From NCBI GenBank assembly GCA_003559395.1, contig PWLL01000002.1:1-7652 (forward strand): 7,652 nucleotides of DNA, given 5' to 3'. Under the pieces are notes generated by a model, which was given only the letters and a program-made list of their open reading frames with translations, had not been told where the DNA came from and searched no databases. Positions 756 through 7,652 of the stretch are shown here, in pieces. Positions within the stretch are counted from its first letter, which is position 1. Every line of letters starts with the position of its first letter. The translations under genes and the position numbers were made by a program. Source of the DNA: Candidatus Iainarchaeum sp. (GTDB lineage Archaea > Iainarchaeota > Iainarchaeia > Iainarchaeales > CSSED10-239).

Positions 756-1194
756 ACTCAACGAGCTGGTTCTCTTCCACGAGGCATTCGCAGAAGAGAT
801 GGGATGGGAGCAGCCACCGGTCATGCTCGTGTCCGATCTCAAGGACCAGTTGATGATCTACATCTTGGCCGAGGGTCATCCCGCTGATGCTCTGAGGACC
901 CTGGAGCCCTTCGAGGATGTCAAGTGGGTCGTCTTGGTGTCTGAAGGATGGACATATCCCGAGTTCCTCATGGATCAGTACACCACTGAAGAGGGTGTCA
1001 GGAACCTCTACAAGTTGCAGCCTCCGTCTCAACATCCACAGCGGGTCGAGGTGCGTCACGTGGTTGGGGTTACACCCGATCATGTCGCGATGGCTCATCG
1101 AAGGCGTGGAGAGGAGCCTACGCTCTTCACTGACGACGAGGATGAGCTTGAAGGAAGAGTCACTGAACAGCTCGTCCGGATCGTAAGAGGATGA
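736..1194 (+). CDS. Hypothetical protein
   Basis: In-frame ATG ATG at 736/739 follows GAGGAG (726-731) and overlaps the upstream stop by 20 nt. The tracked start at 670 would lie deep inside the previous gene. Product starts MMTTRDELNELVLFHEAF; no motif recognised. Confidence 0.6.
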   Translation: MMTTRDELNELVLFHEAFAEEMGWEQPPVMLVSDLKDQLMIYILAEGHPADALRTLEPFEDVKWVVLVSEGWTYPEFLMDQYTTEEGVRNLYKLQPPSQHPQRVEVRHVVGVTPDHVAMAHRRRGEEPTLFTDDEDELEGRVTEQLVRIVRG

Positions 1195-1649
1195 AGGCTG
1201 TCATCATCGACATGGATGGGACGCTATGTGATGTGTCATCCATCCGTTACTTCGTCAACCCGGACCACCCTGATTTCCCAGGGTTCAAGGACTGGGAGTC
1301 GTTCCATGGCGGGGCGATCGATTGCCCGCCGAACGAGGAAGCGCTCACTGAGTACCGACGTGCGAAGGACGAGGGTCTTGCGATCCTCATCGTGACCGCG
1401 CGTATGGAGCAGTGGGCGCTTCCTACGTTGTTATGGCTTCGCGAGAACGACATCGAGCATGATGCTCTGTTCATGCGTGCCCAGAACGATTATCGTAAGG
1501 ACTACGTCATCAAGAGGGAGATCTTGGAAGAGATCAAGGAACAGGGCTATGAACCTGTCAGAGCCGTGGACGATAACCCTGCGGTCATCGAACTCTGGGA
1601 AGAGGAGGGGATCGAGACCATCAAGATCCCAGGTTGGGAGGAACAGTGA
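1191..1649 (+). CDS. HAD-superfamily phosphatase, polynucleotide 3'-phosphatase (Pnkp phosphatase domain)-like
   Basis: All four HAD motifs are in order: I IIDMDGTL (DxDGT), II LIVTAR, III basic RKDYVIKREIL, IV AVDDNP. The 152-aa size matches a capless stand-alone phosphatase domain. ATGA start/stop overlap with the upstream gene. Confidence 0.8.
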   Translation: MKAVIIDMDGTLCDVSSIRYFVNPDHPDFPGFKDWESFHGGAIDCPPNEEALTEYRRAKDEGLAILIVTARMEQWALPTLLWLRENDIEHDALFMRAQNDYRKDYVIKREILEEIKEQGYEPVRAVDDNPAVIELWEEEGIETIKIPGWEEQ

Positions 1650-4547: not shown

Positions 4548-4868
4548 ATGGAGAAGGCAGCACCGGTCTATCCGCCACAGCCCGAGTCGATCGATGTCGA
4601 CATGACGACCGTGTACACGGTGATGTCGTTGTTGACCGTCTCGACCGTCGGGCTCGGGATCTCCACGACCTTGTTGTGGAGGAAGGCCCGGAAGAACGAG
4701 GAGTACATCACCGCTCTGGGGGACTACGTCTCGCGCCTGGTGAAGGACACCGAGTGCGGGAAGGTTGCTTACCAGACCTTCCTCGATGACGAGGAGGAGG
4801 ATGAGGTCGTCGTGTGGGACGACGAGAGCGGTTCGCCGTTCCCAACCGAGAGCCAGGAGGTTGAATGA
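4548..4868 (+). CDS. Single-pass membrane protein with an acidic C-terminal tail
   Basis: AAGGAG (4536-4541) precedes ATG 4548. TM segment is VYTVMSLLTVSTVGLGISTTLLW, followed by RKARK and then DDEEEDE. Stop overlaps the next start (ATGA). Confidence 0.7.
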   Translation: MEKAAPVYPPQPESIDVDMTTVYTVMSLLTVSTVGLGISTTLLWRKARKNEEYITALGDYVSRLVKDTECGKVAYQTFLDDEEEDEVVVWDDESGSPFPTESQEVE

Positions 4869-6748
4869 GCATCCTTGATGAGTTGATCCCGGATGCGTCC
4901 ATCGCTGAGGAGTATGTTGGGCGCAAGATACACGGAGGGCACGAAGACCTGGAGATCCTCGACTGGGCACGTCTGGTCGGGGACAACGTCCTGATCAAGG
5001 GACCGACCGGGCCAGGGAAGCGTCAGCCTCTCTCGATTCCTGTGTTGACCCCTCACGGCTGGACCACCAATGGTGATCTATCGATAGACGATGAGATCAT
5101 CGGACGGAACGGATGTCCGACCAAAGTCATCGGCCTTCATCCGATAGAGAAGGCTCTTGCATATCGGATCACCTTCAATGATGGCACGAGCACGCTCGCT
5201 GACGGTGATCATCTCTGGACCGTTCAGAGTCGTAAACAGCGCCGTACCACCGGCAGGTACCAGATCTTGACGACCAAGGAGATCCTTGACCGAGGGATCC
5301 TTGAGCATGGATCGGATCGTGCAACGTCCTACAACTGGTACCTGCCACTCGTAGACCCGATCCAGCACGACAAGGTCGAATTGGAGATCGAGCCGTACCT
5401 GCTCGGAGTCCTGCTCGCGAACGGATCGCTGACTGAGACCTCTGCGGTCTTCACAACCAACGACGAGTTCATCGCTGATCGTGTGCGTAGCGAGACCGAT
5501 GTCAACGAGACCACTCATGCAACTTCCACTGCGAAGCGATGGTTGGTCTACAACAAGGTTCCTGCGCTGAAAGATCTCGGTCTTTACGGTCTGAAGTCCA
5601 GGGAGAAGTTCATCCCCGATCACTACCTCGTGGCGCACGAGGACGCTCGTCGAGATCTTCTCGCCGGGTTGATGGACTGTGATGGGTCTTCTCGCGAGAA
5701 CCGACGTGATCGTTACTCCACCTTCAGCGTCCAACTGGCAGAAGGAGTGGCAAGTCTTGTTCGCTCGCTTGGTGGTGTTGCCAAGGTCTCAACCAGAGAC
5801 CGAAGCGACGGTGACATTGAGTACGAGGTCTCACTCTGGATGCCGGAGACTCCGTTCACTCTCCCAAGGAAGGCAGCACACTCCCCTGGCGAAGAGTGGT
5901 TCCGTGCCATCGCCTCCATCGAACCTGATGGTGACCGCGAGATGCGCTGCATCACCGTGGACGCAGATGACGGTCTGTATGTGATCGAGCATCACATCGT
6001 CACCCACAACACGATGCTGTGCCGTGCGTACTGTGCTGCGCGCGGTATCCCGTTCGTCAACATCAACCCTGGCACGGCGGTCGAGCCGTCGATGCTCACG
6101 GGGAAGGAGGTTCTGCGTTCAGCGTCGTCGTACTGGGTCGATGGGATCCTCACGGCGGCGCTTCGTCGTGGAGACGTGGTGATCCTCTTCGATGAGTTGA
6201 ACTTCTGGCCTCCAGGGGTGACGGGTTTCCTCCACTCGCTCACCGACGATCAGCGCTACATCTACCTCTACGATCATCTCGTGGAGTACGAGGACGAGGA
6301 AGGCAACAAGCAGGCGATGCCGGAGATCATCAAGGCTGCTCCTGACACGCTCATCGTCGCGGCCTACAACCCGCGCTACGAAGGGACGTTCCGCCCGAAC
6401 CAGGCGTTCGAGAACCGGTTCAACGTGCAGTTCAGGTGGGACTACTCGGAGAAGGTCGAGAACACCCTGATCTCGTTGCCGACGCTGAAGGCGATCGCGA
6501 AGGAGCTTCGGCGTATGCATGGCACCGGTGAGATCACGGTCCCGATCTCGACGAACAAGCTGATGCATTTCCAGAAGATGACCGATGATCTAGGATTGAC
6601 CGCAGCGATCGACAACTTCATGTCGTACTTCGATGGCTCCGAGCACGGTGCTGTCGAGAACGTCATGAACCTGAACCGGTCGCGTCTCAAGGAGGAGGTC
6701 AGGTCTGAGACGGGTGTCGATCCTGACAAGGGACGGTTCGTGAAGTAG
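4865..6748 (+). CDS. AAA+ ATPase of the MoxR/CobS (AAA_5) type, interrupted by an intein; predicted spliced product 297 aa
   Basis: AGGAGG (4855-4860) precedes ATG 4865. Walker A GPTGPGK (5000-5020) is completed by T at 6011-6013. Walker B VVILFDE is at 6176-6196. The AAYNPRYEGTFRPNQAFENRF segment matches the AAA_5 sensor/Arg region. Confidence 0.9.
   Translation: MSILDELIPDASIAEEYVGRKIHGGHEDLEILDWARLVGDNVLIKGPTGPGKRQPLSIPVLTPHGWTTNGDLSIDDEIIGRNGCPTKVIGLHPIEKALAYRITFNDGTSTLADGDHLWTVQSRKQRRTTGRYQILTTKEILDRGILEHGSDRATSYNWYLPLVDPIQHDKVELEIEPYLLGVLLANGSLTETSAVFTTNDEFIADRVRSETDVNETTHATSTAKRWLVYNKVPALKDLGLYGLKSREKFIPDHYLVAHEDARRDLLAGLMDCDGSSRENRRDRYSTFSVQLAEGVASLVRSLGGVAKVSTRDRSDGDIEYEVSLWMPETPFTLPRKAAHSPGEEWFRAIASIEPDGDREMRCITVDADDGLYVIEHHIVTHNTMLCRAYCAARGIPFVNINPGTAVEPSMLTGKEVLRSASSYWVDGILTAALRRGDVVILFDELNFWPPGVTGFLHSLTDDQRYIYLYDHLVEYEDEEGNKQAMPEIIKAAPDTLIVAAYNPRYEGTFRPNQAFENRFNVQFRWDYSEKVENTLISLPTLKAIAKELRRMHGTGEITVPISTNKLMHFQKMTDDLGLTAAIDNFMSYFDGSEHGAVENVMNLNRSRLKEEVRSETGVDPDKGRFVK
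5021..6010 (+). mobile_element. Intein (330 aa) with class 3 signature and a LAGLIDADG homing-endonuclease domain, inserted in the P-loop
   Basis: Removing 5021-6010 restores GPTGPGK|T. The C-terminus is THN followed by +1 Thr. Block A-like sequence is PVLTPHGWTTNGDLSIDDEIIG. Block B is ADGDHLW, with His at 5210 and Trp at 5216. Block F is MRCITVD, with Cys at 5948. Thr precedes HN at 6002. LAGLIDADG motifs are LLGVLLANGS (5399-5428) and LLAGLMDCDGS (5657-5689). Confidence 0.85.
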
Positions 6749-6825
6749 CACTGCTCGGAGTGATCCGAGAGCTGATGGGGTACTCCGCCCGCGATCGGCG
6801 CTCCTGTACTCCAGGGGCTCGTCAA

Positions 6826-6858
6826 GGAGGGGGGAGGTCTTCTCCGCCTCCCCCCTCC
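6826..6858. repeat. Perfect 12-bp G/C-rich inverted repeat (hairpin) in the ATPase-partner intergenic gap
   Basis: GGAGGGGGGAGG (6826-6837), 9-nt loop TCTTCTCCG, CCTCCCCCCTCC (6847-6858). No U-tract follows. The structure is seen directly; its function is unknown. Confidence 0.8.
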
Positions 6859-6880
6859 GATGAACCTTCGAAGGGGAACC

Positions 6881-7652
6881 ATGAGAGGGAAACTGACACA
6901 ACGACAGATCGACAACGTCAAGGATGTACGCAGGTATGGAGTGATCTCTGTTCTGGAGAAGACGAACAGGATCCTCGGATCGCAAGATTCGGTCGTCAAG
7001 GTCGAGTACGAGAACGGGATCCCGGCTCCAGCGATGACGGATGGCAAGAAGATCATCATCAACACGATGTATGAGCCGGTTCGCGGAGCGCTTGAGAAGG
7101 GGTTCGACCCATCGTCGATGATGATCGCGACGGGGTTGAACTACCACGAGCTTGCGCACTGTCTGTTCATGCCACGGATCACCTCGCCATACATCAAGAA
7201 GATCCGCGAGAAGGGCATGTTCGAGACGTGGAACATCCTCGAAGATCAGACGGACGAGACTCGGTTCGTGAAGCTCTATGAGCCTGCGAAGCACTACTTC
7301 TCTGCGCTCGTTTCGAACTTCATCATCGGCTCGGATGCGTTCACGGCAGGGTCGAACTACCTGCTCGTGTCCGGGCGGAGGTTCATCCCTCAGAGGATGA
7401 GACTCAAGCTGATGGACGACTTCTCTCATCCAGATCTGATCCCGGAGATCGATGCCCTGATAACCGAGTACAAGTCTCTGGTCTATCCAGATGATGAGGA
7501 TCGGATGTTCGAGGTCGTGACCGAGTTCCATGACCTGATCAGAGCTGTTCGACCACCGGACATGGGTGGGATCTTCCACGAGAACATCAGTGTTGGTCAG
7601 CCGAAGAAAGGGCTCTCCAAGGAGCTTCTCGAAGCCCCTGAACCTTCTTCAG
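6881..7652 (+). CDS. Metallopeptidase-like (HExxH) protein resembling the CobT/DUF2201 N-terminal domain; likely partner of the ATPase; 3'-partial
   Basis: I translated this frame by hand from ATG 6881 and found no stop to the window end. That explains its absence from the ORF track. AAGGGGA lies upstream. Motifs are AMTDGKKIIINT (7031-7066), HELAH (7145-7159) and WNILEDQTDETR (7229-7264). Alternative ATG at 6860 has no RBS. Confidence 0.8.
   Translation, partial: MRGKLTQRQIDNVKDVRRYGVISVLEKTNRILGSQDSVVKVEYENGIPAPAMTDGKKIIINTMYEPVRGALEKGFDPSSMMIATGLNYHELAHCLFMPRITSPYIKKIREKGMFETWNILEDQTDETRFVKLYEPAKHYFSALVSNFIIGSDAFTAGSNYLLVSGRRFIPQRMRLKLMDDFSHPDLIPEIDALITEYKSLVYPDDEDRMFEVVTEFHDLIRAVRPPDMGGIFHENISVGQPKKGLSKELLEAPEPSS

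What the first reader, a model, noticed from the sequence alone, without database searches (positions are those of the whole stretch)
6881..7652. Real gene missing from the ORF track: HExxH protein with a CobT/DUF2201-like N-terminal domain
The frame from ATG 6881 is open to the last base, 257 codons, so a stop-bounded ORF finder omitted it. The track shows only a 329-aa antisense ORF and a 104-aa out-of-frame ORF. The product has TDGKKIIIN, HELAH and NILEDQTDE in the order seen in the putative metallopeptidase domain that precedes vWA domains in MoxR/CobS partner proteins. Whether the HExxH is catalytic or structural in this family is not settled.
Basis: partly seen in the sequence, partly recalled or inferred. 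Interest (0 to 1): 0.7.

Follow-up and report, generated by a model that had tools for sequence, protein, structure and literature searches.

The report
Truncated phage CobT-like adaptor gene
The open frame at the window's end is a real gene: the first 257 codons of a 611-residue phage protein with a metalloprotease-like head, an acidic linker and a VWA tail, which always follows an AAA+ ATPase gene; this kind of pair is known in phages but its function has not been tested.

Summary
The + frame from ATG 6881 is open for 257 codons. It has the codon bias of the neighbouring genes, and the antisense 329-aa ORF is its mirror image. A public contig that is 100% identical to window 6388-7652 carries the frame on to a stop, giving 611 aa.

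The full protein has three parts: an N-domain (about residues 1-235), an acidic linker of about 90 residues, and a C-terminal region with a VWA domain and a DxSxS MIDAS motif.

It belongs to a large phage family: 664 cluster representatives, and Gordonia and Brevibacterium phage genes annotated "CobT-like". The gene sits directly downstream of an AAA+ ATPase gene in 80 of 80 viral loci examined.

H89, E90, H93, E121, D122 and E126 are invariant or nearly invariant, and HExxH is present in 148 of 150 representatives.

The N-domain does not match Pfam DUF2201_N or CobT. It shares only the TDG…N…HExxH core with DUF2201_N. Its fold and topology match the newly solved, M48-like N-domain of bacterial CobT, where the motif has decayed to HDxxxH.

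The thing is a new member of a known kind (viral cobST, or MoxR with a peptidase-VWA partner). Its function is untested.

The parts
6881..7652 (+). First 257 codons of a 611-codon gene encoding a phage CobT-like VWA adaptor protein. The window ends inside the gene, at the start of the acidic linker.
   Evidence: Open frame. Codon bias favours this frame. L096 is 100% identical over window 6388-7652 and continues the ORF to 611 aa. There are 664 family representatives at E below 1e-3, and P0001 is 100% identical over residues 1-257.
6870..6877 (+). SD-like purine run GAAGGGGA, 3 nt upstream of ATG 6881.
   Evidence: Read directly from the sequence. Gene callers on L006, L007 and L096 use the same start.
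6899..7063 (+). Backing helix (residues 7-31) and three-stranded beta-sheet (residues 38-61). The sheet carries the TDG…N motif (T53-G55, nt 7037-7045).
   Evidence: AF2 model with pLDDT 93.6 and pTM 0.92. G55 is nearly invariant. This segment aligns with DUF2201_N and with Wss1p.
7145..7159 (+). HELAH (H89 E90 L A H93), on the long helix 77-96. This is the putative zinc-binding and catalytic motif.
   Evidence: HExxH is present in 148 of 150 family representatives. E90 and H93 are invariant and H89 nearly invariant among 120 sequences.
7238..7258 (+). LEDQTDE (L120-E126) on helix 114-132. It is the candidate 'glutamate helix' that would supply the third metal ligand.
   Evidence: D122 is invariant. 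E126 is invariant in A4 and nearly invariant in A2. E121 and L120 are nearly invariant. A LEDQxxE-type motif occurs in 126 of 150 representatives, most often 31 residues after the first His. It aligns with VEQARVE of CobT_N.
7373..7378 (+). Invariant G165-R166 (GRRF/YLP motif) in the helical C-terminal half of the N-domain.
   Evidence: Invariant in alignments A2 and A4. Its role is unknown.
7586..7652 (+). End of the folded N-domain and start of the acidic, low-complexity linker, which continues beyond the window to about residue 330.
   Evidence: pLDDT dips at residues 221-240. P0001 residues 257-330 are rich in Glu, Asp, Gly and Gln. The linker aligns with the CobT linker.
4865..6748 (+). 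Partner gene: a MoxR-class (AAA_5) ATPase of 627 aa, interrupted by a 330-aa intein (nt 5021-6010) inside Walker A. The spliced product is 297 aa.
   Evidence: Pfam AAA_5, LAGLIDADG_3 and Hom_end. The spliced sequence hits AAA_5 at 5e-15. PDB hits: midasin 3e-24, NorQ 4e-14, CbbQ 5e-12. With the family profile: NorQ 3e-28, CbbQ 4e-25, CobS 1e-10. An ATPase lies directly upstream in 80 of 80 viral loci.
6749..6880 (+). Structured 132-nt spacer between the two genes, including a 13-bp G/C hairpin (6826-6838 pairing with 6846-6858).
   Evidence: RNA fold energy -76 kcal/mol, z = -3.6 against shuffles. No Rfam family matches and no U-tract terminator is found.
6590..7579 (-). Antisense 329-aa ORF. 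It is a non-coding shadow of the + strand gene.
   Evidence: GC by codon position mirrors the + frame, and its codon score is lower. It has no Pfam or PHROG hit. SNPs split 3 synonymous to 5 non-synonymous.

Best explanation
Window 6881-7652 encodes the N-terminal domain of a 611-residue phage adaptor protein. This protein works together with the AAA+ ATPase encoded just upstream.

Shown here:
- The protein has three parts: a zincin-like N-domain (about residues 1-235), a disordered acidic linker of about 90 residues, and a C-terminal region ending in a VWA domain with a DxSxS MIDAS motif.
- The two genes form a strictly conserved pair in tailed phages.
- The metal-site residues H89, E90, H93, E121, D122 and E126 are conserved across the family.

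Inferred, by analogy with the solved CobS-CobT, NorQ-NorD and CbbQ-CbbO machines:
- The ATPase forms a hexameric ring.
- The N-domain docks on the ATPase small (lid) subdomain.
- The conserved segment before the VWA domain inserts into the ring pore.
- The VWA MIDAS grips an acidic residue of a target protein, which is then remodelled using ATP.

The phage family keeps an intact HExxH…E site, including the catalytic Glu, whereas bacterial CobT has HDxxxH. I therefore think the N-domain most likely binds zinc and cleaves a protein (about 55-60%) rather than serving only as a docking module. The target is unknown.
For: Real, full-length gene.

Architecture: P0001 passes the Pfam cut-offs for VWA_2 (27.5 bits against 27) and VWA (25.3 against 23.8) at residues 439-571, with LLDMSSSM as the MIDAS motif. 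DxSxS occurs in 140 of 150 relatives.

Family size: 664 representatives at E below 1e-3, median length 647 aa. Phage homologues are annotated 'CobT-like' or 'vWF protein'.

Gene pairing: an ATPase lies directly upstream on the same strand in 80 of 80 IMG/VR loci, with a median gap of about 61 nt, and in the Gordonia and Brevibacterium phages inspected.

N-domain fold: the AF2 model has pLDDT 93.6. Its order of elements (one helix, a three-stranded sheet, then helices) equals the CobT_N crystal structure as described in 10.64898/2026.07.21.739949. A model of bona fide CobT_N (pLDDT 92.2) retrieves largely the same BFVD phage proteins as the window model, including Cantare gp56, a sequence homologue of the window protein.

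C-terminal half: the family profile's best PDB hit is CobT chain 9uka_G at E 2.9e-12, covering the linker, the pore-insertion 'shaft' region and the start of the VWA domain. P0001 alone gives E 1.3e-3.

Active-site conservation.

Weak zincin signals: selecase and abylysin are the top PDB fold hits, Wss1p scores E 0.05 by profile, family members hit phrog_459 'peptidase' over the HExxH region, and hhalign links the core to DUF2201_N.
Against: No fold match to a solved zincin is significant; the best has E 0.3 and TM-score below 0.5.

I could not inspect model coordinates, so the geometry of H89, H93 and E126 is inferred from motifs and secondary structure only.

Sequence similarity of the N-domain to CobT_N is not significant on its own (hhalign E 0.035, probability 1.5%).

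The ATPase is closer to NorQ, CbbQ and midasin than to CobS, so transferring CobST interaction details is an analogy.

No target, no complex and no activity has been shown for any member of this family.
Confidence: 0.75

Rival explanations
1. It is a true viral CobT. Together with the ATPase acting as CobS, it hijacks the host CobN to form a cobaltochelatase and raise cobalamin supply. This is the auxiliary-metabolic-gene reading proposed by Liu et al. 2021 (PMC8651126).
For: The best solved homologue of the family's C-terminal half is CobT. P0001 hits PHROG 5298 'cobalamin biosynthesis protein' at 1.8e-9. The ATPase hits phrog_249 'porphyrin biosynthesis' at 1.9e-26. The tripartite architecture is the same as CobT. 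The N-domain fold is shared. The literature describes the cobST pair as widespread in tailed viruses.
Against: No member reaches Pfam CobT (PF06213). NCBIfam gives no CobT call for the fragment or the two phage homologues scanned. The ATPase profile scores NorQ at 102 bits and CbbQ at 92 bits but CobS at only 44 bits. The family conserves an intact HExxH…E site that true CobT has lost; a chelatase adaptor would not need that site. No cobN or other cob gene appears in the 35-kb contig or the loci examined.
Confidence: 0.2
2. It is a virion-assembly chaperone and protease. The MoxR-VWA pair assists folding or assembly of structural proteins, and the peptidase domain processes them. This was proposed for jumbo phages by Iyer et al. 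[quoted passage not shown]
For: The domain architecture is the one described in that paper: a MoxR AAA+ ATPase next to a vWA protein with an N-terminal metallopeptidase domain. The catalytic motif is conserved.
Against: In this contig and in the phage genomes inspected, the pair lies among replication and nucleotide-metabolism genes (DnaB helicase, primase, PNKP-type phosphatase, SSB, pyrimidine-dimer glycosylase, HTH regulators), not in the structural module. Gene position is only weak evidence about timing.
Confidence: 0.15
3. It is a member of the DUF2201 family (PF13203 plus PF09967, the type represented by phage N4 gp25).
For: hhalign between A4 and A5 gives E 1.4e-5 over the TDG…N…HExxH core. 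One relative gives a sub-threshold PF13203 hit. Both families sit downstream of a MoxR-like ATPase.
Against: The fragment and 73 of 74 relatives do not hit PF13203. Only 37 columns align. DUF2201_N has HExxHxxxxH plus ADYxIN, has no LEDQxxE, and joins its VWA-like domain without a long acidic linker. The fold match to a DUF2201-type phage protein is weak (E 0.06, TMq 0.27) compared with E 1e-11 to 1e-6 and TMq 0.6-0.8 for CobT-type phage proteins.
Confidence: 0.05
4. The frame is not a gene: it is open by chance, a pseudogene remnant, or the antisense ORF is the real gene.
For: Only that stop-bounded ORF lists show the antisense ORF and omit this frame.
Against: all argue against it: codon bias, hundreds of homologues, synonymous-biased SNPs, a confident fold, and a complete 611-aa ORF.
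Confidence: 0.01

Closest known systems
Viral cobST gene pair and the actinophage 'CobT-like cobalamin biosynthesis protein' (for example Gordonia phage DalanDe gp69, GMA6 gp62, Brevibacterium phage Cantare gp56)
   Same: These are direct sequence homologues (tblastn 3e-22 to 2e-8, 24-30% identity). They have the same length class (581-637 aa), the same invariant GLNYHELxH and LEDQ..E motifs, the same acidic linker and VWA domain, and the same position directly after an AAA_5 ATPase.
   Different: The window protein is only 24-30% identical to any isolated-phage protein. Its close relatives (42-49% identity) are all unnamed metagenomic sequences. Its ATPase partner carries an intein, whereas the five phage ATPases inspected are of normal length, 340-411 aa.
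CobT, the adaptor subunit of aerobic cobaltochelatase CobNST (PDB 9uka, 21vu, 21vt; preprint 10.64898/2026.07.21.739949)
   Same: Both have a tripartite build: an M48-like N-domain (one helix, a three-stranded sheet, then helices), a disordered linker of about 90 residues, and a pore-insertion 'shaft' plus VWA domain with MIDAS. The middle and C-terminal regions are detectably homologous (E 2.9e-12). The N-domain folds retrieve the same phage proteins. LEDQRIE lines up with VEQARVE.
   Different: CobT_N has HDxxxH (H85, D86, H90) where the phage family has HExxH. N-domain sequence similarity is not significant (E 0.035). There is no PF06213 hit. The partner ATPase is nearer to NorQ and CbbQ than to CobS. 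No CobN gene appears in the genomic context.
DUF2201_N-DUF2201 proteins (PF13203 plus PF09967), such as phage N4 gp25-like proteins (EcP1 gp34, phage G gp576), paired with MoxR-like N4 gp24-like ATPases
   Same: Both have an HExxH zincin-like domain N-terminal to a VWA-type domain and are encoded after a MoxR-like ATPase in phage genomes. They share the TDG-strand, N and HExxH core.
   Different: DUF2201 proteins are about 400 aa with no long acidic linker. Their motif is HExxHxxxxH followed by ADYxIN, and they lack LEDQxxE. Only 37 columns align and the fold match is weak.
NorQ-NorD and CbbQ-CbbO (MoxR-class AAA+ ATPase with a VWA adaptor)
   Same: NorQ and CbbQ are the closest solved single-domain relatives of the ATPase (3e-28 and 4e-25). 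NorD's VWA domain is hit by the family profile at 1.9e-4. The logic of a motor plus a MIDAS adaptor is the same.
   Different: No similarity was detected between the N-domain and NorD or CbbO. Those systems act on defined cellular enzymes (cNOR, rubisco), and no peptidase motif is known in them (this last point is my own knowledge and was not tested here).
Jumbo-phage MoxR plus metallopeptidase-vWA pair (Iyer et al. 2021, PMC7824862; ASV44729.1 and ASV44728.2)
   Same: The described architecture and gene pairing are the same.
   Different: I did not retrieve ASV44728 itself, so whether it belongs to this sequence family or to DUF2201 is untested. The window comes from a smaller actinophage-like genome and the pair lies in a replication-type gene block.

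Membership tests
DUF2201_N (Pfam PF13203) | Match to the Pfam model at or above the gathering score (23.2 bits) | tested here: not met
   The fragment gives no hit at E up to 1. Full-length P0001 and the phage homologues give none. Among 74 relatives, 1 hits at 19.5 bits, below the cut-off. Positive controls score 127-165 bits.
DUF2201_N (Pfam PF13203) | HExxHxxxxH motif followed by ADYxIN (invariant H69, E70, H73, H78, D95, N99 in reference alignment A5) | tested here: not met
   The window has HELAHCLFMPR with no third His. It has LEDQxxE instead, about 31 residues downstream.
DUF2201_N (Pfam PF13203) | TDG…N strand shortly before HExxH | tested here: met
   hhalign between A4 and A5 aligns PAwTDGxxIxiN…HELaH with TAxTDGRxxYYNP…HEVLH (E 1.4e-5, 37 columns).
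DUF2201_N (Pfam PF13203) | Directly followed by the DUF2201 VWA-like domain (PF09967) in a protein of about 400 aa | tested here: not met
   P0001 is 611 aa with an acidic linker of about 90 residues and hits VWA_2 and VWA, not PF09967. Only 2 of 74 relatives give weak PF09967 hits.
CobT (aerobic cobaltochelatase subunit; PF06213 plus PF11775) | N-domain matches Pfam CobT (PF06213) | tested here: not met
   There is no PF06213 hit in the fragment, in P0001, in the phage homologues, or in 74 relatives. hhalign against a PF06213 alignment gives E 0.035 and probability 1.5%.
CobT (aerobic cobaltochelatase subunit; PF06213 plus PF11775) | N-domain fold: helix, three-stranded sheet, then about eight helices (M48C-like) | tested here: met
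   The window model has helix 7-31, strands 38-42, 51-53 and 57-61, then helices. The CobT_N model has helix 16-33, strands 39-43, 48-50 and 53-57, then helices. The two models share more than 12 of their top 20 BFVD hits. The crystal structure is described. A direct superposition was not possible.
CobT (aerobic cobaltochelatase subunit; PF06213 plus PF11775) | Disordered linker, then 'shaft' plus VWA domain with MIDAS, homologous to CobT_C | tested here: met
   The family profile against 9uka_G gives E 2.9e-12 over CobT residues 223-463. P0001 alone gives 1.3e-3. CobT_C (PF11775) is hit by 21 of 74 relatives, but not by P0001 itself at E up to 0.1. This part lies outside the window.
CobT (aerobic cobaltochelatase subunit; PF06213 plus PF11775) | Partner is CobS, and the complex acts on CobN | tested here: inconclusive
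   The partner ATPase profile scores CobS at 1.2e-10 but NorQ at 3e-28 and CbbQ at 4e-25. No cobN is seen in the loci. Interaction with a host CobN cannot be tested with these tools.
Zincin / gluzincin metallopeptidase fold | HExxH on a helix preceded by a mixed beta-sheet, with a third ligand (Glu) on the following helix | tested here: met
   HELAH lies in helix 77-96 and LEDQTDE in helix 114-132, with the sheet at residues 38-61. The residues are invariant or nearly invariant. The three-dimensional juxtaposition was not inspected.
Zincin / gluzincin metallopeptidase fold | Significant structural or sequence match to a characterised metallopeptidase | tested here: not met
   The best PDB fold hits are selecase, abylysin and jannalysin at E 0.3-2 and TM-score at most 0.5. 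The profile against PDB sequences gives Wss1p at E 0.05. One of 74 relatives hits WLM at 0.003.
Zincin / gluzincin metallopeptidase fold | Zinc binding and peptidase activity | not testable with these tools
   This needs metal analysis and protease assays of the purified protein.
MoxR-class AAA+ / VWA adaptor two-gene systems | AAA_5 ATPase gene adjacent to and co-oriented with a gene for a VWA protein carrying a MIDAS motif | tested here: met
   Window genes 4865-6748 (AAA_5) and 6881 onward. The pairing holds in 80 of 80 viral loci. P0001 has VWA_2 and VWA above cut-off and the motif DMSSS.

The most novel reading that the evidence does not exclude
The pair is neither a cobalamin helper nor an assembly chaperone. 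It is a split, ATP-driven targeted protease. The VWA MIDAS captures a specific host (or phage) protein, the MoxR-class ring unfolds or strains it, and the intact zincin site on the adaptor's own N-domain cuts it. This would make it a phage host-takeover or counter-defence device. Bacterial CobT would then be a derived, catalytically dead descendant of such a peptidase-adaptor.
Probability: 0.2. Interest if true: 0.7.

Novelty: new member of a known kind. Interest (0 to 1): 0.33.

Why it matters
For annotation, this is a reminder that stop-bounded ORF lists drop genes cut by a window edge. The gene is real and its full length was recovered.

For biology, the cobST-like pair is among the more widespread unexplained gene pairs in tailed phages. 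The literature offers two untested readings: a cobaltochelatase helper, or an assembly chaperone with a protease.

This analysis adds three points:
- This large actinophage-type family keeps a complete HExxH…E site (148 of 150 representatives), whereas bacterial CobT_N carries a decayed HDxxxH.
- Its ATPase is closer to NorQ and CbbQ than to CobS.
- The N-domain is not covered by Pfam, and PHROGs did not match it in the window protein.

These points weaken the "cobalamin biosynthesis" label now carried by many phage records. They also give clear mutational targets: H89, E90, H93, D122, E126, and the MIDAS D444, S446 and S448.

Tried and rejected
1. Direct family scans of the 257-aa fragment (Pfam, PHROGs, NCBIfam, PDB sequences) gave nothing.

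2. The word-indexed protein search with the fragment found nothing. With the N-domain profile it found only 14 fragmentary, unannotated hits. The exhaustive representative search was what opened up the family.

3. Megablast of the whole window against isolated phages gave no match.

4. Foldseek against the PDB gave no significant hit. The CobT entries were not among the 50 hits shown, and I do not know whether the Foldseek library holds them, so no direct model-to-crystal comparison was possible. As a substitute I modelled CobT_N and compared the BFVD hit lists of the two models.

5. hhalign against a single CobT_N sequence and against a 38-sequence CobT_N profile was not significant (E 0.13 and 0.035). 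I therefore treat N-domain homology to CobT as supported by structure and architecture, not by sequence.

6. My first by-eye alignment put CobT 'SMALR' under HELAH. hhalign instead pairs HExxH with CobT H85-D86…H90, and I adopted that pairing.

7. The promoter and terminator scan of 6500-7652 found nothing, and Rfam found nothing.

8. PADLOC found no defence-system match for either protein.

9. Clustering the neighbours in 80 loci showed that only the ATPase and the VWA gene are universal. The other neighbours are lineage-specific, for example a pyrimidine-dimer glycosylase.

10. The antisense-ORF and pseudogene readings were rejected.
Full report
**1. The observation**

The + frame from ATG 6881 runs without a stop to the last base of the window, 257 codons, and contains TDGKKIIIN, HELAH and NILEDQTDE as reported. 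The ORF lister omits it because it runs off the end. Over the same DNA it shows an antisense 329-aa ORF (6590..7579) and an out-of-frame 104-aa ORF.

An open run of this length has a probability of about 4e-5 at this base composition. GC at codon positions 1/2/3 is 0.54/0.35/0.74, the pattern of all eight neighbouring + strand genes. The antisense ORF has the mirror pattern, 0.76/0.35/0.53. A codon-usage log-odds trained on the neighbours gives +0.49 per codon for this frame and +0.12 for the antisense frame.

An SD-like GAAGGGGA ends 3 nt before the ATG. An alternative in-frame ATG at 6860 has no such site.

**2. Extension beyond the window**

The upstream ATPase protein occurs on three public contigs that are 98.5-99.6% identical to the window. 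On the two that extend far enough (L006 and L007), the downstream gene is 611 aa.

The exhaustive protein search returned P0001, which is 611 aa and 100% identical over residues 1-257. Its contig L096 is 100% identical to window 6388-7652 and carries the ORF to a stop.

Ten SNPs between the window and the variants fall 7 synonymous to 3 non-synonymous in this frame, and 3 to 5 in the antisense frame.

**3. What the protein is**

P0001 has three parts:
- an N-domain of about 235 residues;
- a stretch of about 90 residues rich in Glu, Asp, Gly and Gln;
- a C-terminal region with VWA_2 (27.5 bits against a cut-off of 27) and VWA (25.3 against 23.8) at residues 439-571, and a DMSSS MIDAS motif.

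The family is large, with 664 cluster representatives at E below 1e-3 and a median length of 647 aa.

Among isolated phages, 16 records match. They are Gordonia phages (Bendigovirus, Chidieberevirus and others) and Brevibacterium phage Cantare, annotated 'CobT-like cobalamin biosynthesis protein', 'putative von Willebrand factor protein' or 'hypothetical protein'.

In each phage genome inspected, the gene directly follows an AAA_5 ATPase gene. In 80 IMG/VR loci found with the N-domain profile, 80 have the ATPase immediately upstream on the same strand, with a median gap of about 61 nt. No other neighbour is universal.

**4. The N-domain**

Alignments of 120 and of 30 relatives show E90, H93, D122, G165 and R166 as invariant. 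H89, E121, E126, N87, P98 and G55 are invariant or nearly so. HExxH is present in 148 of 150 representatives. A LEDQxxE-type motif is present in 126 of 150, most often 31 residues after the first His.

AlphaFold2 with this alignment gives a confident model (pLDDT 93.6, pTM 0.92). It has helix 7-31, a three-stranded sheet (38-42, 51-53, 57-61), helix 77-96 bearing HELAH, helix 114-132 bearing LEDQTDE, and then further helices. This is the layout of a minimal gluzincin.

No solved structure matches significantly. The best PDB fold hits are the minigluzincins selecase, abylysin and jannalysin at E 0.3-2. A profile search of PDB sequences gives the WLM protease Wss1p at E 0.05.

**5. DUF2201_N or CobT?**

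*DUF2201_N.* Pfam, PHROGs and NCBIfam do not recognise the fragment. Of 74 relatives, only one gives a sub-threshold PF13203 hit.

I collected six bona fide DUF2201_N-DUF2201 proteins from phages: phage G gp576, EcP1 gp34 (N4 gp25-like), PAC2, SCTP-2 gp169, Phosso and SABI. The four I scanned against Pfam score PF13203 E-values of 1e-36 to 1e-48. Profile-profile comparison aligns only 37 columns, covering TDG…N…HExxH (E 1.4e-5, probability 80%). DUF2201_N continues as HExxHxxxxH…ADYxIN and has no LEDQxxE.

*CobT.* The full-length family profile's best PDB hit is cobaltochelatase subunit CobT (9uka_G, E 2.9e-12), over the linker, the pre-VWA segment and the start of the VWA domain. A July 2026 preprint (10.64898/2026.07.21.739949) describes CobT as follows:
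- an N-domain of one helix, a three-stranded sheet and eight helices that resembles peptidase M48C and binds the small subdomain of CobS;
- a disordered linker of about 90 residues;
- a C-domain whose 'shaft' enters the CobS ring pore and whose VWA MIDAS faces CobN.

That is the same architecture as the phage protein.

I recovered the CobT_N sequence from PDB 21vu and built a PF06213 alignment. hhalign between the two N-domain profiles is in register over 141 columns. It pairs H89/E90/H93/P98 with CobT H85/D86/H90/P95, and LEDQRIE with VEQARVE. It is not significant, however (E 0.035, probability 1.5%).

As a structural test, I modelled CobT_N (pLDDT 92.2) and searched BFVD with both models. 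The two hit lists share most of their top entries: A0A6J5NJV0, A0A8S5PAI4, A0A516LB66, the haloarchaeal virus proteins, Cantare gp56 and A0A6J7WRJ1. DUF2201-type phage proteins match the window model only weakly (E 0.06, TMq 0.27).

My conclusion is that the domain is a CobT_N-like, M48-like zincin fold that keeps the catalytic motif. It shares only the zincin core with DUF2201_N.

**6. The partner ATPase**

The upstream ORF (4865-6748) is an AAA_5 ATPase split in Walker A by a 330-aa intein that carries a LAGLIDADG endonuclease.

The spliced 297-aa product hits midasin AAA modules (3e-24), NorQ (4e-14) and CbbQ (5e-12). A six-sequence family profile scores NorQ at 3e-28, CbbQ at 4e-25 and CobS at 1e-10.

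The motor is therefore MoxR-class, nearer to NorQ and CbbQ than to CobS, while the adaptor's nearest solved relative is CobT.

**7. How it most likely works**

Shown here:
- a conserved two-gene module;
- the three-part architecture of the adaptor;
- a MIDAS motif;
- a conserved HExxH…E constellation.

Inferred by analogy with CobST, NorQD and CbbQO:
- a hexameric ATPase ring;
- the N-domain docked on the lid subdomain;
- the conserved pre-VWA segment (PGW…GRLN…F..W.EG) in the ring pore;
- the MIDAS holding an acidic residue of a target that is remodelled with ATP.

The catalytic Glu is invariant in the phage family but replaced in CobT. For that reason I favour a working metallopeptidase (about 55-60%) over a purely structural docking domain. 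The target is unknown.

The pair lies among replication and nucleotide-metabolism genes rather than structural genes. This speaks mildly against a virion-assembly role.

**8. What is already known**

Liu et al. 2021 (PMC8651126) report that the cobST cluster is widespread in tailed viruses of bacteria and archaea. [quoted passage not shown]

Iyer et al. 2021 (PMC7824862) describe a phage MoxR-vWA pair in which the vWA protein has an N-terminal metallopeptidase domain, and propose virion assembly with proteolytic processing.

The kind is therefore known and the function is untested.

What this analysis adds:
- recovery of the full gene;
- the finding that this family's N-domain lies outside current Pfam models, and that PHROGs did not match it in the window protein;
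- the contrast between intact and decayed motifs relative to true CobT;
- the NorQ/CbbQ affinity of the motor.

**9. Verdict**

This is a real gene, correctly spotted and largely correctly interpreted. It is a new (metagenomic, actinophage-like) member of a known kind. Interest is modest: it is ordinary as an annotation matter, but the family is a good and tractable test case for whether viral 'CobT' proteins are proteases.

Noticed in passing
window 5021-6010 (within ATPase gene 4865-6748): A 330-aa intein sits inside the Walker A motif (GPTGPGK|RQPLS…IVTHN|TMLC) and carries a LAGLIDADG endonuclease. It has no N-terminal Cys, Ser or Thr (its first residue is Arg). It does have Trp two residues after the block-B His (DGDHLW), Cys in block F (MRCITVD) and Thr-His-Asn at its end. 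From memory, this is the W-C-T signature of class 3 inteins. The five isolated-phage homologues of the ATPase that I inspected have no intein.
   Followed up: partly
window 6749-6880: The 132-nt spacer between the ATPase and adaptor genes is unusually structured (-76 kcal/mol, z = -3.6). It has a 13-bp G/C hairpin (6826-6838 pairing with 6846-6858) just upstream of the SD, and no U tract. It could be a tail-less terminator or attenuator, or a translational coupling element. No Rfam family matches.
   Followed up: partly
alignments A6 and A7 (bacterial CobT_N, PF06213): True CobT N-domains have invariant H85, H90, P95, E108, Q109 and R111, and near-invariant D86 and E113 (HDxxxH … VEQARVE). This looks like a decayed HExxH…E zincin site. 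The CobSTN preprint notes the resemblance to M48C but does not mention the words zinc or HExxH.
   Followed up: partly
L009-L015 (phage G gp576, EcP1 gp34, PA5oct-like phages): N4 gp25-like DUF2201_N-DUF2201 proteins (PF13203 at 1e-36 to 1e-48) are labelled 'HNH endonuclease' or 'homing endonuclease' in several phage records (RefSeq among them) and in phrog_1314. This appears to be a propagated mis-annotation.
   Followed up: partly
window 1191-1649 and L006 4421-4873: A HAD/PNKP-type phosphatase (phrog_415 'polynucleotide kinase', 5e-43) lies in the window. On the longer contig, a NADAR-domain gene lies 1.9 kb upstream of it, and a DnaB-type helicase lies at the contig's far end. These are nucleic-acid repair and replication functions in the same + strand block as the pair.
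   Followed up: no
L006 13849-15377 and L096 2326-3854 (just downstream of the gene, outside the window): Two overlapping HTH_3 (Cro/C1-type) regulator genes and an unannotated 257-aa gene follow the adaptor gene with overlapping stop and start codons, suggesting one operon.
   Followed up: no
P0093 and P0122 (family members): Two of 150 family representatives lack HExxH; P0093, for example, has LNYQEVAH. The site can therefore be lost occasionally without loss of the protein.
   Followed up: no
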